From the human T2T-CHM13v2.0 reference genome, Homo sapiens, in the NCBI RefSeq assembly GCF_009914755.1, contig NC_060934.1: a stretch of 64,000 nt of DNA. One strand, 5' to 3'. Position numbers and translations under genes: made by a program. The stretch's first letter is position 1; the number at the start of each line of letters is the position of its first letter. Shown here piece by piece: positions 38,260-48,126 of this stretch. The notes under the pieces are model-generated. The model was given only the letters and a program-made list of their open reading frames with translations. It was not told the origin of the DNA and did not search any database.

Positions 38260-39172
38260 GGCAAACAAGAGTCCAGCTGGGAATTGAAAAGGAAATCCTG
38301 GACAACTAGACTACCATAGGAAACTGAGCAATTCTGGCATAGTCCTGGAGATCTAATAAGCTGTACACTTCCCCAAGGCTGTGCACATGCATAGGAAGGA
38401 TCTGGAAAAGAGAAGTCACCAGTGTCTTACCTTTGGCTGACCACAAGGCCCTGCACAAGGAGGAAATGAAAGCTAATGCTACACTGAAAAATGCCTGAAG
38501 TTTGAAGACTTAACTTCTCACACAGATCTCCTTGGCAAATGGTTGAAGACATGCAGGCAAGGCATTTCAGGAAATTTCCCCACCAATCATTGGCTGACCA
38601 ATAAATTATGCTGACCCAGGTATGACCCCAGGAATCCAGGCTTAAAAATAGAAAAAAAGAACTTAAAAAAGTAGCAAAAACTTCATAGCCACACACCACA
38701 AGTAATATAGAATCTACAAATTTAGTCCAGAAAAGTCACTAAACCAGTAATTAGCAATGAGGAAAAACAATAACAATAAGCCAGCAACAAAAAATAAATC
38801 TTGGGGAAGGAATCTGATATCACAGTTGTTGCAATATAGAATATCAACTCACATGTCCAACTTTCAACAAAAAAATTATGAGGCATACAAAGAAATAAGA
38901 AAGTATGACACATGTATAGGAACAAAAGCAAGCAACAGAAAATGTCCTTGAGAAGGCAGATTCTGGGTTTACTATACAAAGACTTTAAATCAGTTATTTT
39001 ATACATGTACAAAGATAAACATTTATAATATAAATGCAAATATTTCTATGTTGTAAATATATATTTATATAATATAAATATTTACATTCACATACCATGT
39101 CCAAAACATCAAAAGAAAGTATGACATGGATGTCTTACCAAATAGAGAATATCAATAAAGACAGAGATTTAA
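38260..39172 (+). mobile_element. Ancient L1ME-type 5' region and ORF1 start; resumes at ~52860
   Basis: GACTTTAAATCAGTTATT…AAATAGAGAATATCAATAAAG are L1M ORF1-type motifs. Confidence 0.5.
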
Positions 39173-41570
39173 GGCGTTCCAAGATGGCCAAATAGGAACA
39201 GCTCTGGTCTGCAGCTCCCAGCATGATCAATGTAGAAGACAGGTGATTTCTACATTTCCAACTAAGGTACCTGGTTCATCTCATTGGGACCGGTTGGACA
39301 GTGGGTGCAGCCCATGAAGGGCAAGCCGAAGCAGGAGGGCAGGGTGTTGCCTCACCCGGGAAGCACAAGGGTTCGGGGAATTTCCCTTTCCTAGCCAAAG
39401 GAAGCTGTGACAGATTATCTGGAAAAACGGGACACTCCTGCCCAAATACTGTGCTTTTCCCAAGGTCTTGCAACCGGCAGACAAGGTGATTCTCTCCCGT
39501 GCCTGGCTCAGCAGCTCCCATACCCACAAATCCTTGCTCACTGCTAGAGCAGCAGTATGAGATTGAGCTGTGAGATGGCAGCCTAGCTGGGGGAGGGGTG
39601 TCTGCCATTGCTGAGGCTTGAGTAGGTAAAAAAAGTGGCCCAGGAAGCTTGAACTGGGTGGAGCCCACCGCAGCTCAACAAGCCCTACTGCCTCTGGACT
39701 CCACCTCTGCGGGCAGGGCATAGCTGAATAAAAGGCAGCAGACAACTTCTGCAGACTTAAACCTCCCTGTCTGACAGCTCTGAAGAGAGCAGTGATTCTG
39801 TCAGCATGGCATTTGAGCTCTGAGAATGGACAGACTGCCTCCTCAAGTGGGTCTCTGACCGCTGTGTAGCCTAACTGGAAGACACCTCCCAGTAGGGGTT
39901 GACTGACACTTTGTATAGGCAGCTGCCCCTCTGGGACGAAACATCCAGAGGAAGGATCAGGCAGCAATATTTGCTGTTCTGCAATATTTGCTGTTCTGCA
40001 GCTTCTGCTGGTGATACCCAGGCAAACAGGTCTGGAGTGGAACTCCAGCAAATGCCAACAGACTTGCAGCTGAGGGACCTGACTGTTAGAAGGAAAACTA
40101 ACAAACAGAAAGGAATAGCATCAACATCAACAAAAAGGACATCCACACCAAAACCCCATCTGTAGGTCACCATCATCAAAGACCAAAAGTAGATAAAACC
40201 ACAAAGATGGGGAGAAACCAGAGCTGAAAAGCTGAAAATTGTAAAAATCAGAGCACCTCTTCTCCTCCAAAGGATCACAGCTCCTCACCAGCAATGGAAC
40301 AAAGCTAGATGGGAAATGACTTTGATGAGTTGACAGAAGTAGGCTTCAGAAGGTCGGTAATAACAAACTTCTCCGAGCTAAAGGAGGATGTTAGAACCCA
40401 TTGCAAAGAAGCTAAAAACCTTGAAAAAAGATTAGGTGAATGGCTAACTAGAATAAACAACGTAGAGAAGACCTTAAATGACCTGACGGAGCTAAAAGCC
40501 ATGGAACAAGAACTTCGTGATGCACGCACAGGCTTCAATAGCCAATTCGATCAAGTGGAAGAAAGGGTATCAGTGACTGAAGATCAAATTAATGAGATAA
40601 AGTGAGAAGAGAAATTTAGAGACAAAAGAGTAAAAAGAAATGAAAGAAGGCTCCAACAAATATGGGACTATGTGAAAAGACCAAATCTACGTTTGATTGG
40701 TGTACTGGAAAGTGATGGGGAGAATGGAAACAAGTTGGAAAACACTCTTCAGGATATTATCCAGGAGAACTTCCCCAACCTAGCAAGGCAGGCCAACATT
40801 CAAATTCAGGAAATACAGAGAACGCCACAAAGATGCTCCTCAAGAAGAGCAACCCCAAAACACATAATTGTCAGATTCACCAAGTTTGAAATGAAGGAAA
40901 AGGTGTTAAGGGCAGCCAAAGAGAAAGGTGAAGTTACCCACAAAGGGAAGCCCATCAGACTAAAAGCAGATCTCTCAGCAGAAACCCTACAAGCCAGAAG
41001 AGAATGGGGGCCAATATTCAACATTCTTAAAGAAAAGAATTTTCAACACAGAATTTCATATCCAGCCAAACTAAGCCTCGTAAGTGAAGGAGAAATAAAA
41101 TCCTTTACAGAGAACCAAATGCTCAGAGATTTTGTCACCACCAGGCCTGCCTTACAAGAGCTCCTGAAGGAAGCACTCAACATGGAAAGAAACAATCAGT
41201 ACCAGCCACTGCAAAAACAAGCCAAATTGTAAAGGCTATCGATGCTATGAAGAAACTGCATCAATTAACAGGCAAAATAACCAGCAAACATCATAATGAC
41301 AGGATAAAATTCACACATAACAATATTAACCTTAAATGTAAATGGGGTAAATGTCCCGATTAAAAGACACAGATGGGCTAATTGGATAAAGAGTCAAGAT
41401 CCAGCAGTGTGCCGTATTCAGGAGACCCATTTCACGTGCAAAGACTCACATAGGCTCAAAATAAAGAGATGGAGGAAGATCTACTAAGCAAATTGAAAGC
41501 AAAAAAAAAAAAAAAAAGTGGGGGTTGCAATCCTAGTCTCTGATAAACAGACTTTCTTTTTTTTTTTTTT

Positions 41571-41667
41571 AAACAATTATTCATTTTTGTTTAAGACATC
41601 AGGAGTACTAATAAAGAACCAACTGGTAAACTGCTGATAATTCCATATAATATATCTAGCACTACAA
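41571..41667 (-). other. ~97-bp unique sequence between the inner TSD and the outer poly(A): candidate 3' transduction
   Basis: Non-L1 sequence lying between two A-tails. Confidence 0.8.
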
Positions 41668-41894
41668 CTACACTGAATCATTTTTTTTTTATATACTTTA
41701 AGTTTTAGGGTACATGTGCACATTGTGCAGGTTAGTTACATATGTATACATGTGCCATGCTGGTGCGCTGCACCCACTAACTCGTCATCTAGCATTAGGT
41801 ATATCTCCCAATGCTATCCCTCCCCCCTCCCCCCACCCCACCACAGTCCCCAGAGTGTGATATTCCCCTTCCTGTGTCCATGTGATCTCATTGT

Positions 41895-45737
<3,843 letters not shown>

Positions 45738-45785: not shown

Positions 45786-46802
45786 TTACATTTTGGCATG
45801 ATTTTGCAGCGGCTGGTACCGGTTGTTCCTTTCCATGTTTAGCGCTTCCTTCAGGAGCTCTTTTAGGGCAGGCCTGGTGGTGACAAAATCTCTCAGCATT
45901 TGCTTGTCTGTAAAGTATTTTATTTCTCCTTCACTTATGAAGCTTAGTTTGGCTGGATATGAAATTCTGTGTTGAAAATTCTTTTCTTTAAGAATGTTGA
46001 ATATTGGCCCCCACTCTCTTCTGGCTTGTAGGGTTTCTGCCAAGAGATCTGCTGTTAGTCTGATGGGCTTCCCTTTGTAGGTAACCCGACCTTTCTCTCT
46101 GGCTGCCCTTAACATTTTTTCCTTCATTTCAACTTTGGTGAATCTGACAATTATGTGTCTTGGAGTTGCTCTTCTTGAGGAGTATCTTTGTGGCATTCTC
46201 TGTATTTCCTGAATCTGAACGTTGGCCTGCCTTGCTAGATTGGGGAAGTTCTCCTGGATAATATCCTGCAGAGTGTTTTCCAACTTGGTTCCATTCTCTG
46301 CCTCACTTTCAGGTACACCAATCAGACGTAGATTTGGTCTTTTCACGTAGTCCCATATTTCTTGGAGGCTTTGCTCATTTCTTTTTATTCTTTTTTCTCC
46401 AAACTTCCCTTCTCACTTCATTTCATTCATTTCATCTTCCATCACTGATACCCTTTCTTCCAGTTGATCGCATCGGCTCCTGAGGCTTCTGCATTCTTCA
46501 CGTAGTTCTCGAGCCTTGGTTTTCAGCTCCATCAGCTCCTTTAAGCACTTCTCTGTATTGGTTATTCTAGTTATACATTCTTCTAAATTTTTCTCAAAGT
46601 TTTCAACTTCTTTGCCTTTGGTTTGAATGTCCTCCTGTAGCTCAGAGTAATTTGATCGTCTGAAGCCTTCTTCTCTCAGCTCGTCAACATCATTCTCCAT
46701 CCAGCTTTGTTCCGTTGCTGGTGAGGAACTGCGTTCCTTTGGAGGAGGAGAGGTGCTCTGCGTTTTAGAGTTTCCAGTTTTTCTGTTCTGTTTTTTCCCC
46801 AT
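45786..46802 (-). pseudogene. LINE-1 ORF1 (1017 nt, frame intact) with a single premature TGA at codon 130 (46413-46415)
   Basis: MGKKQNRK…EMNEMK* then in-frame EGKFGEKRIKRNEQSLQEIWDYVKRPNL…QNHAKM; consistent with CGA>TGA. Confidence 0.9.
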
Positions 46803-47193
46803 CTTTGTGGTTTTGTCTACTTTTGGTCTTTGATGATGGTGATGTACAGATGGGTTTTCGGTGTGGATGTCCTTTCTGTTTGTTAGTTTTCCTTCTAACA
46901 GACAGGACCCTCAGCTGCAGGTCTGTTGGAATACCCTGCCGTGTGAGGTGTCAGTGTGCCCCTGCTGGGTGGTGCCTCCCAGTTAGGCTGCTCGGGGGTC
47001 AGGGGTCAGGGATCCACTTGAGGAGGCAGTCTGCCCGTTCTCAGATCTCCAGCTGCGTGCTGGGAGAAGCATTGCTCTCTTCAAAGCTCAGATGGAAATG
47101 CAGAAATCACCCGTCTTCTGCGTGGCTCACGCTGGGAGCTGTAGACCGGAGCTGTTCCTATTCGGCCATCTTAGCTCCTCCCCCTACACTGAA

Positions 47194-47387
47194 TCATTTA
47201 TTTTGAGCCAGGGCTTGAAGCAGACAATCCAAGCATCCTTCTAAACTATCCTCGGTCTTGTCAACAGCTGTTATCTTCAGCTTCTTCAAGGTATCACTGA
47301 GATTATCCATGTTGCTCCCCGAGGGTGAGGAACCGGCGGGGCGAGGCGAAGGTCTGTGGTGCGGGCGGCGCAGCTCTGTGTCCTCCC
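47194..47387 (-). pseudogene. RAP1GDS1: Processed 5' fragment of RAP1GDS1 (SmgGDS): 77 nt of GC-rich 5'UTR plus codons 1-37, then K and stop
   Basis: ATG at 47310 translates MDNLSDTLKKLKITAVDKTEDSLEGCLDCLLQALAQN, which I recognise as the SmgGDS N-terminus. The UTR retains many CpGs. Confidence 0.9.
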
Positions 47388-48126
47388 TAAAACAGACTTT
47401 CAACCAACAAAGATCAAAAGAGACAAAGAAGGCCATTACATAATGGTAAAGGGATCAATTCAACAAGAAGAGCTAACTATCCTGAATATATACGCACCCA
47501 ATACAGGAGCACACAGATTCATAAAGCAAGTCCATAGAGACCTACAAAGAGATTTATATTCCCAGTCAATAATAATGGGAGACTTTAACATCCCACTGTC
47601 AATATTAGACAGATCAATGAGACAGAAGTTTAACAAGGATATCCATGACCTGAACTCAGCTCTGCAACAAGCAGATCTAATAGACATCTACGGAACTCTC
47701 CAACCCAAATCAACAGAATACACATTCTTCTCATCCCCACATCACATTTATTCTAAAATTTACCACATAATTGGAAATAAAACACTCCTCAGCAAATGTA
47801 AAAGAACAGAAATCACAACAGACTGTCTGTCAGACCACAGTGCAATCAAATTAGAACTCAGGATTAAGATACTCACTCAAAACCACATAACTACATGAAA
47901 ACTGAACAACTTGCTCCTGAATGACTACTGGGTAAATAATGAAATGAAGGTAGAAATAAAGATGTTCCTTGAAAGCAATGAGAACGAAGACACAACATCC
48001 CAGAATCTCTGGGACACATTTAAAGCAGTGTGTAGAGGGAAATTTATAGCACTAAATGCCCACAAGAGAAAGCAGGAAAGATCTAAAATCGACACCCTAA
48101 CATCACAATTAAAACAGCCAGAGTAG

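What the first reader, a model, noticed from the sequence alone, without database searches (positions are those of the whole stretch)
46803..47183. L1 5'UTR is spliced (SpIRE97/622): a promoter-deficient L1 apparently carried by a host promoter
Seen: the 5'UTR is only 381 nt instead of ~900. The first 97 nt (47183-47087, …TTTCCATCTGAG) join directly to CTTTGAAGAGAG (47086 onward). The unspliced L1PA6 in this window shows the matching donor (…ACTAAG|GTACC, GT at 39267) and acceptor (CTGACAG|CTCTGAAG, AG at 39776-39777), so the deletion is a clean GT-AG intron. Established: this is the SpIRE97/622 class, which loses much of the sense promoter, the antisense promoter and ORF0 and is considered a dead end. 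Inference: either the RNA underwent three splicing events, or the source was already a SpIRE that re-mobilised by borrowing the RAP1GDS1 promoter. The second case would be an exception to the dead-end view.
Basis: partly seen in the sequence, partly recalled or inferred. Interest (0 to 1): 0.8.

Follow-up and report, generated by a model that had tools for sequence, protein, structure and literature searches.

The report
Spliced L1 re-mobilised by RAP1GDS1 promoter
This is a human L1 retrotransposon copy whose own promoter had already been spliced out in its parent on chromosome 4, and which jumped anyway because the host gene RAP1GDS1 transcribed it; this is real, but this exact case is already in print.

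Summary
On the minus strand an L1PA2 starts at 47183. Its 5'UTR is 381 nt, and the break lies between 47087 and 47086. In 6 of 6 unspliced L1 5'UTRs examined, that break sits directly before a GT and directly after an AG. This is the SpIRE97/622 deletion.

The element carries RAP1GDS1 exons 1 and 2, then 15 nt of chr4 intron, at its 5' end. It carries about 110 nt of chr4 intron at its 3' end, and its own TSD lies outside all of this. The source L1 in RAP1GDS1 intron 2 on chr4 aligns colinearly over 5.6 kb with the same deletion. So a SpIRE was transcribed from the host promoter, spliced exon 2 to a cryptic acceptor 15 nt upstream, and retrotransposed.

This is already published. Larson 2018 lists the element as SpIRE(97/622)-79. 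Law et al. (Cell Genomics 2026) describe this RAP1GDS1/L1PA2 source and its chr10 and chr1 daughters.

Small additions found here:
- a shared 3' transduction;
- a third, 5'-truncated daughter on chr2;
- three different poly(A) sites;
- ORF lesions that are all private to single copies;
- a still-open ORF2 in the chr10 copy.

Novelty: already known. Interest is low to moderate.

The parts
47390..47401 (-). 5' target-site duplication of the chr10 insertion (GAAAGTCTGTTT). One extra T at 47389 lies before the transduced sequence.
   Evidence: The same 12-mer recurs at 41556-41545. Law et al. Table S5 gives the same TSD.
47307..47388 (-). RAP1GDS1 exon 1 (82 nt, from near the transcription start to ...CAACATGG); 5' transduction.
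   Evidence: chr4 hit at 98% identity; the chr4 exon is followed by GT. Coordinates.
47199..47306 (-). RAP1GDS1 exon 2 (108 nt), joined exactly to exon 1; 5' transduction.
   Evidence: chr4 hit at 99% identity; the chr4 exon is preceded by AG and followed by GT. Coordinates.
47184..47198 (-). 15 nt of chr4 RAP1GDS1 intron 2 lying directly upstream of the source L1 (contains the source's own 5' TSD). On chr4 it is preceded by ...ctcttttcag, the cryptic acceptor.
   Evidence: Larson S1 Data empty site of clone 35. [quoted passage not shown]
47087..47183 (-). L1 5'UTR, first 97 nt, ending at the splice donor position.
46803..47086 (-). L1 5'UTR from the acceptor (L1.3 position 622 in Larson's numbering) to the base before the ORF1 ATG, 284 nt.
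47194..47310 (-). Upstream ORF opened by the RAP1GDS1 start codon: 38 codons, stop inside the 15-nt chr4 flank.
45786..46802 (-). L1 ORF1 region, interrupted by one in-frame stop (open pieces of 129 and 136 codons).
41895..45722 (-). L1 ORF2, still one open frame of 1275 codons, with endonuclease and reverse-transcriptase domains.
   Evidence: Pfam Exo_endo_phos 5.7e-19 and RVT_1 5.3e-46.
41681..41894 (-). L1 3'UTR and the source element's own A-tract (about 41690-41681).
41571..41680 (-). 3' transduction: the source's 3' TSD copy (41680-41668) followed by chr4 intron sequence downstream of the source L1.
   Evidence: (chr4 hit at 99% identity).
41557..41570 (-). Poly(A) tail of the retrotransposed chimeric RNA (14 A).
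41545..41556 (-). 3' target-site duplication of the chr10 insertion.
   Evidence: Law et al. Table S5.
39170..41544 (+). It continues on the plus strand beyond 47401 (checked to 47700). The SpIRE composite is nested in it in opposite orientation.
   Evidence: The two flanks match adjacent, 13-nt overlapping positions of L1 ORF2 in antisense to the query..

Best explanation
The chr10 element is a daughter of a SpIRE97/622 that sits, in sense orientation, in intron 2 of RAP1GDS1 on chr4.

The parent arrived there already lacking about 524 nt of its 5'UTR, and so most of its internal promoter. It was then transcribed as part of the RAP1GDS1 pre-mRNA. The RNA was processed and inserted as follows:
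1. Exon 1 was spliced to exon 2.
2. Exon 2 was spliced to a cryptic acceptor (...ctcttttcag|) 15 nt upstream of the L1.
3. The RNA ran through the L1, past its own poly(A) signal, and was polyadenylated about 110 nt downstream in the intron.
4. This chimeric mRNA was inserted by L1 target-primed reverse transcription into an older L1 on chr10, at a TT/GAAA site, making a 12-14 nt TSD.

Shown by the sequence:
- every junction;
- the spliced state of the source;
- the independence of the daughters.

Inferred:
- The RNA used its own ORF1p and ORF2p in cis. No disabling lesion is shared between copies, so both ORFs were probably open when the source fired.
- ORF1 was reached by reinitiation or leaky scanning past the 38-codon RAP1GDS1 upstream ORF.

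The daughter is again promoter-poor. It carries only transcribed RAP1GDS1 sequence, not the promoter, so the lineage depends on the one chr4 locus.
For: (1) The break is flush with GT..AG in 6 of 6 unspliced L1 5'UTRs.

(2) A 131-nt 3' barcode query gave 6 of 6 scored hits: chr10 itself, chr4, three on chr1 and one on chr2. A 217-nt 5' query gave 6 of 6: chr10 itself, the three chr1 copies, and chr4 exon 1 and exon 2 as separate hits about 32 kb apart.

(3) The chr4 splice sites are canonical at all three joins. Exon 1 is followed by GT. Exon 2 lies between AG and GT. The 15-nt flank is preceded by a pyrimidine tract and AG.

(4) The chr4 L1 is colinear with the chr10 copy: 5632 columns at 98.1% identity. 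The five copies are 5625-5637 nt long and differ by 1.10-2.10%.

(5) The source's TSD (GATTCAGTGTAG) flanks the L1 inside the daughters. The daughters' own, different TSDs lie outside the transduced parts.

(6) The events are independent. The chr1 copies start 14 nt further upstream in exon 1 and end 6 nt further downstream than the chr10 copy. The chr2 copy is 5'-truncated and runs about 92 nt further still. The TSDs differ: GAAAGTCTGTTT, AAAAAATAAATAAA(T) and AAAATGCAGAAACTA.

(7) ORF lesions are private in all 5 copies. ORF2 of chr10 is open over 1275 codons.

(8) Experiment in print: a SpIRE97/622 construct retrotransposes at about 70% of wild type with a CMV promoter and about 7% without (Larson section 'Intra-5'UTR splicing decreases...').

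(9) Law et al. reach the same reading for this locus and report three long RNA reads joining RAP1GDS1 exons to the intronic L1 (section 14 read whole).
Against: Nothing in the sequence contradicts this reading. Four points remain open.
- Cis versus trans mobilisation cannot be decided from sequence.
- For the 5'-truncated chr2 daughter the promoter used is unknown.
- The residual activity of the spliced 5'UTR (about 7% in Larson's assay) means the source was not strictly dead by itself. The host exons nevertheless show which promoter made the two full-length daughters.
- The chr4 copy was examined in one assembly here, plus hg38 through the two papers, so I cannot exclude an unspliced allele elsewhere. 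A shared TSD makes such an allele very unlikely.
Confidence: 0.95

Rival explanations
1. The source was a full-length L1, and each retrotransposed RNA was spliced three times (exon 1-2, exon 2 to the cryptic acceptor, and 97/622).
For: The 97/622 sites are real splice sites that L1 RNAs use (Larson). A pre-mRNA already being spliced could use them.
Against: The chr4 source itself carries the deletion and is catalogued as a SpIRE in hg38. Two independent full-length daughters and the source would all have had to acquire the same rare event separately.
Confidence: 0.02
2. The host exons were added by reverse-transcriptase template switching from the L1 RNA 5' end onto a RAP1GDS1 mRNA, as in U6/L1 chimeras, and not by read-through transcription.
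For: Such chimeras exist (Law et al. abstract, listing). The host part is a spliced mRNA.
Against: 15 nt of chr4 intron lie between exon 2 and the L1, and they begin exactly after an AG acceptor. The same join occurs in two independent insertions. The mRNA and the L1 come from the same gene in the same orientation.
Confidence: 0.01
3. The chimeric RNA was mobilised in trans by proteins of another L1, like a processed pseudogene, and not by its own ORF1p and ORF2p.
For: The 38-codon upstream ORF may reduce ORF1 translation. All present copies have a broken ORF1.
Against: None of the lesions is shared between copies, so the ORFs were probably open at the time. ORF2 of chr10 is still open. Cis preference is the rule for L1 (Larson Discussion). 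Three daughters from one locus fits cis better.
Confidence: 0.12
4. The chr10 copy arose by DNA-level duplication of the chr1 copy, or the reverse, and not by a separate retrotransposition.
For: The three chr1 copies are such duplicates: their flanks are near-identical and they share one TSD. Law et al. say the same.
Against: chr10 and chr1 have different TSDs, different 5' ends, different poly(A) sites and unrelated flanks.
Confidence: 0.01

Closest known systems
RAP1GDS1/L1PA2 chimeric insertions of Law et al., Cell Genomics 2026 (PMC13174262; preprint 10.1101/2025.02.02.635956)
   Same: It is the same object. Their Table S5 row gives hg38 chr10:44482819-44488319(-), TSD GAAAGTCTGTTT, EN motif TT/GAAA, RAP1GDS1 exons 1-2 plus 15 nt of chr4. 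They name the intronic SpIRE as the source, the cryptic acceptor 15 bp upstream, and one chr10 plus three chr1 copies.
   Different: In the passages and the section I read, the 3' transduction, the different poly(A) sites and the 5'-truncated chr2 daughter are not mentioned. Their figures are not held, and of their supplementary tables I saw only the passages returned by one term search, so I cannot say these are absent there.
SpIRE97/622 of Larson et al., PLoS Biol 2018 (PMC5860796)
   Same: The deletion has the same breakpoints. The element is their SpIRE(97/622)-79, the source is -35 and one chr1 copy is -6.
   Different: Their table marks all three 'Transduction: No'. It gives TSDs of 16, 12 and 14 nt that are all the source's TSD. 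Their 'empty site' for -79 and -6 is built from RAP1GDS1 exon sequence. So 3 of their 116 entries are one lineage rather than three splicing events.
SVA elements that acquired MAST2 exon 1 by splicing (5'-transducing SVA groups)
   Same: It works alike: a host gene's first exon is spliced onto a retrotransposon RNA, and the chimera is then copied many times.
   Different: This is recalled knowledge. I saw only a search listing of papers that hold these terms. There the acquired exon travels with regulatory sequence and founded a large family. Here the daughters appear to stay dependent on the single chr4 locus, and only three events are seen.
Ordinary L1 5' and 3' transduction
   Same: Read-through from an upstream promoter and past the weak L1 poly(A) signal carries flanking DNA to the new site.
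   Different: The 5' flank here is spliced host exons, not contiguous DNA, and the carried L1 lacks most of its own promoter.

Membership tests
SpIRE97/622 | 5'UTR deletion whose ends coincide with the donor G98U99 and the acceptor A620G621 | tested here: met
   The break is flush with GT and AG in 6 of 6 unspliced L1 5'UTRs. The definition is from Larson section 7.
SpIRE97/622 | Hallmarks of L1 integration: TSD, poly(A), endonuclease-type target | tested here: met
   12-14 nt TSD at 47401-47390 and 41556-41545, a 14-nt A tail, and a TT/GAAA target. These enclose the transduced flanks, not the L1 alone.
SpIRE97/622 | Arose by retrotransposition of an L1 RNA spliced in that round | tested here: not met
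   The splice was inherited. The chr4 source already has it. The element belongs to the class by structure but is second generation.
SpIRE97/622 | Reduced promoter activity of the spliced 5'UTR | not testable with these tools
   Shown for an L1.3-based construct by Larson (about 7% retrotransposition without CMV). It has not been measured for this copy.
Host-promoter-driven, exon-spliced L1 chimera (5' transduction of mRNA) | Host exons joined at annotated donor and acceptor sites, with the first exon included | tested here: met
   Exon 1 and exon 2 map to chr4 with GT/AG borders.
Host-promoter-driven, exon-spliced L1 chimera (5' transduction of mRNA) | A source L1 inside the same gene, in the same orientation, downstream of the transduced exons | tested here: met
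   The chr4 L1 lies about 27 kb downstream of exon 2 on the same strand. Larson lists its orientation as 'Same'.
Host-promoter-driven, exon-spliced L1 chimera (5' transduction of mRNA) | The chimeric RNA exists in cells | not testable with these tools
   Law et al. report three long reads, two from brain and one from testis.

The most novel reading that the evidence does not exclude
The RAP1GDS1 SpIRE was not a one-off. It fired at least three times: two different 5' ends, three different poly(A) sites, and daughters on chr10, chr1 and chr2. Three of the 116 catalogued SpIRE97/622 are this one lineage.

If the same TSD mis-assignment hides further parent-daughter pairs in the catalogue, a measurable share of SpIREs would be copies of SpIREs driven by host promoters, not fresh splicing events. 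The 'dead-end' rule and the estimated rate of 5'UTR splicing would then both need revising.
Probability: 0.15. Interest if true: 0.5.

Novelty: already known. Interest (0 to 1): 0.25.

Why it matters
An L1 lineage normally survives only if each copy carries its own promoter, and SpIREs were put forward as dead ends for that reason. This locus shows that a promoter-poor L1 can still multiply if a strongly expressed host gene transcribes it and splices it in. That route may also bypass silencing aimed at the L1 promoter.

The point has already been made in print for this very locus, so the value here is confirmation from an independent reading. The minor additions are a third daughter, the 3' barcode, evidence that both ORFs were open when the source fired, and a correction to three rows of the 2018 catalogue.

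Tried and rejected
- A single global alignment of the spliced 5'UTR to the in-window L1 placed the break a few bases off, because the two elements are only about 80-87% alike near the junction. Separate local alignments of the two halves resolved it.
- I first took the flanking L1 to be in the same orientation as the SpIRE.
- My first coordinates for the TSD and exon 1 were off by one. One search corrected them.
- I did not find an unspliced L1PA2 for comparison. The genome search with the in-window intron stretch returned only relatives of about 88% identity, so the 6 of 6 test rests on older L1PA copies.
- Rough dating from private substitutions over about 5.6 kb: chr10 56, chr4 34, chr1 stem 8, chr1 tips 17, 32 and 41. 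With the 0.17% per Myr rate quoted in Law's methods this suggests events some 3-6 Myr ago, with chr10 the earlier one. The chr1 tips are very unequal and CpG sites inflate the counts, so I do not rely on it.

Full report
**What is there.** The window's minus strand between 47401 and 41545 holds one composite insertion. In its own 5'-to-3' order it consists of:

| Part | Window coordinates |
|---|---|
| 5' TSD, GAAAGTCTGTTT | 47401-47390 |
| 82 nt matching RAP1GDS1 exon 1 | 47388-47307 |
| 108 nt matching RAP1GDS1 exon 2 | 47306-47199 |
| 15 nt of chr4 intron | 47198-47184 |
| L1, from its first base | from 47183 |
| First A-tract | about 41690-41681 |
| About 110 nt of chr4 intron | 41680-41571 |
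| Tail of 14 A | 41570-41557 |
| 3' TSD (same 12-mer as the 5' TSD) | 41556-41545 |

The two outer flanks match adjacent positions of L1 ORF2, overlapping by 13 nt, in antisense to the insertion. The target was therefore the older plus-strand L1 whose 5' end lies at about 39170.

**The observation.** The L1 5'UTR is 381 nt (47183-46803), and the break lies between 47087 and 47086.
- Separate local alignments of the two halves to the unspliced in-window L1 end and begin exactly at GT (39267-39268) and after AG (39776-39777). The unspliced L1 holds 511 nt between them.
- I repeated the test on the 6 loci returned by a genome search with that stretch: the in-window copy and 5 others, out of 40 scored of 5685 candidates. 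In 6 of 6 the flanking bases were the same, GTACCT and TCTGACAG, with 506-511 nt between.
- These comparators are older L1PA copies of about 88% identity. I did not obtain an unspliced L1PA2.
- Larson et al. 2018 define SpIRE97/622 by G98U99/A620G621 and found 116 of them (section 7). Their S1 Table lists this element as SpIRE(97/622)-79, PA2, hg38 chr10:44482732, 5501 bp.

**The source.**
- The 3' barcode (131 nt) hit six places of six scored: chr10 itself, chr4:101640890, three on chr1 and one on chr2.
- The 5' part (217 nt) hit chr10 itself, the same three chr1 places over 205 nt each, and chr4 twice, as separate exon 1 and exon 2 hits about 32 kb apart.
- On chr4, exon 1 is followed by GT and exon 2 lies between AG and GT. 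The 15-nt flank of the intronic L1 is preceded by ...gattctcttttcag. All three joins in the chimera are therefore canonical splice joins.
- The chr4 L1 aligns to window 47198-41570 without a large gap: 5632 columns at 98.1% identity.
- In a five-copy alignment the copies are 5625-5637 nt long and differ by 1.10-2.10%. The only gap run of 5 or more is in the A-tract.
- The source is therefore itself a SpIRE97/622. It is Larson's SpIRE(97/622)-35, in RAP1GDS1, orientation 'Same'.

**Independent events.**

| Daughter | 5' end | 3' end of chr4 sequence | Own TSD |
|---|---|---|---|
| chr10 | at AGGGAGG in exon 1 | ...TTGTTT(A) | GAAAGTCTGTTT |
| chr1 (three copies) | 14 nt further upstream in exon 1 | 6 nt further downstream | AAAAAATAAATAAA(T) |
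| chr2 | 5'-truncated, about 270 nt of L1 | about 92 nt further than chr10 | AAAATGCAGAAACTA |

- The three chr1 copies share flanks and one TSD. [quoted passage not shown]
- The chr2 copy still holds the source's 3' TSD copy.
- At least three RNAs from the chr4 locus were therefore inserted, and two of them demonstrably started at the RAP1GDS1 promoter. For the chr2 copy the promoter is unknown.

**State of the genes.**
- In the chr10 copy ORF1 has one in-frame stop, leaving open pieces of 129 and 136 codons.
- ORF2 of the chr10 copy is one open frame of 1275 codons. It carries Pfam endonuclease and reverse-transcriptase domains.
- The chr4 source and the three chr1 copies have stops or frameshifts in both ORFs.
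- No lesion is shared between any two of the five copies. By parsimony both ORFs were open when the source fired. This is an inference, and it favours mobilisation in cis.
- The RAP1GDS1 start codon opens a 38-codon upstream ORF that ends inside the 15-nt chr4 flank. How ORF1 was translated behind it is not known.

**What is in print.** For Larson et al. I read the abstract, sections 7, 14 and 17 part 1, both parts of the S1 Table, and passages of S1 Data.
- They show that a 97/622 construct retrotransposes at about 70% of wild type with a CMV promoter and about 7% without.
- Their table marks -79, -35 and -6 as having no transduction and gives TSDs of 16, 12 and 14 nt. From the listed cleavage sites, and from the 'empty sites' printed for -79 and -6, these are all the chr4 source's TSD, and the 'empty sites' consist of RAP1GDS1 exon sequence. 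The parent-daughter relation was not drawn there.

For Law et al. 2026 I read passages, section 14 whole, and passages of Table S5.
- They describe this case exactly: two independent RAP1GDS1/L1PA2 insertions (chr10, and chr1 in three copies).
- They describe a source in intron 2 with a cryptic acceptor 15 bp upstream, and a 5'UTR deletion corresponding to a known SpIRE.
- They report an active promoter and three long RNA reads joining the exons to the L1.
- They claim the first case of a transcriptionally disabled intronic L1 co-opting an external promoter.
- Their Table S5 row for chr10 agrees with my TSD and exon coordinates.
- A full-text search for RAP1GDS1, LINE-1 and transduction found 7 papers, of which only this one is relevant.

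Within Law et al. I searched for 'transduction', 'chromosome 2' and 'polyadenylation'. This returned only 5' transduction passages, no mention of chromosome 2 and no mention of polyadenylation. The following may therefore be unreported:
- the 3' barcode;
- the three poly(A) sites;
- the chr2 daughter.

Their figures are not held, and I saw only the supplement passages that one term search returned, so I cannot be sure. The private-lesion argument and the correction of three catalogue rows are also small additions.

**Verdict.** The case is already known, so interest is low to moderate.

Noticed in passing
window 41895-45722 (minus): ORF2 of this several-million-year-old L1PA2 copy is still one open frame of 1275 codons with endonuclease and reverse-transcriptase domains. 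ORF1 has a single in-frame stop. The other four family copies have a broken ORF2.
   Followed up: partly
L011 9254 to about 9740 (T2T chr2, from about 233045853): This is a 5'-truncated daughter of the chr4 SpIRE. It holds about 270 nt of L1 3' end, the source's 3' TSD copy, about 200 nt of chr4 intron, an A-rich tail and its own TSD AAAATGCAGAAACTA. It is not mentioned in the parts of Law et al. that I read.
   Followed up: partly
Larson 2018 S1 Table and S1 Data, rows SpIRE(97/622)-6, -35, -79: The three rows are one lineage: the source, plus two daughters of which one was later duplicated. The TSDs given for -6 and -79 are the source's TSD carried inside the transduced flanks, and both are marked 'Transduction: No'.
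   Followed up: yes
The SpIRE composite is nested in its ORF2 region in opposite orientation.
   Followed up: yes
window 47194-47310 (minus): The RAP1GDS1 start codon and first 37 codons are kept and run into a stop inside the 15-nt chr4 flank. This gives a 38-codon upstream ORF about 390 nt before the ORF1 ATG.
   Followed up: partly
L008, L009, L010 (T2T chr1 at about 205.59, 121.32 and 144.09 Mb): The three segmentally duplicated chr1 copies have very unequal private substitution counts over 5.6 kb (17, 32 and 41), with only 8 shared. The two pericentromeric copies have changed faster, or have exchanged sequence with other L1s.
   Followed up: no
window 46850-47206 (plus): There is an ATG-started open frame of 118 codons antisense to the spliced 5'UTR and the chr4 flank. 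It is probably chance.
   Followed up: no
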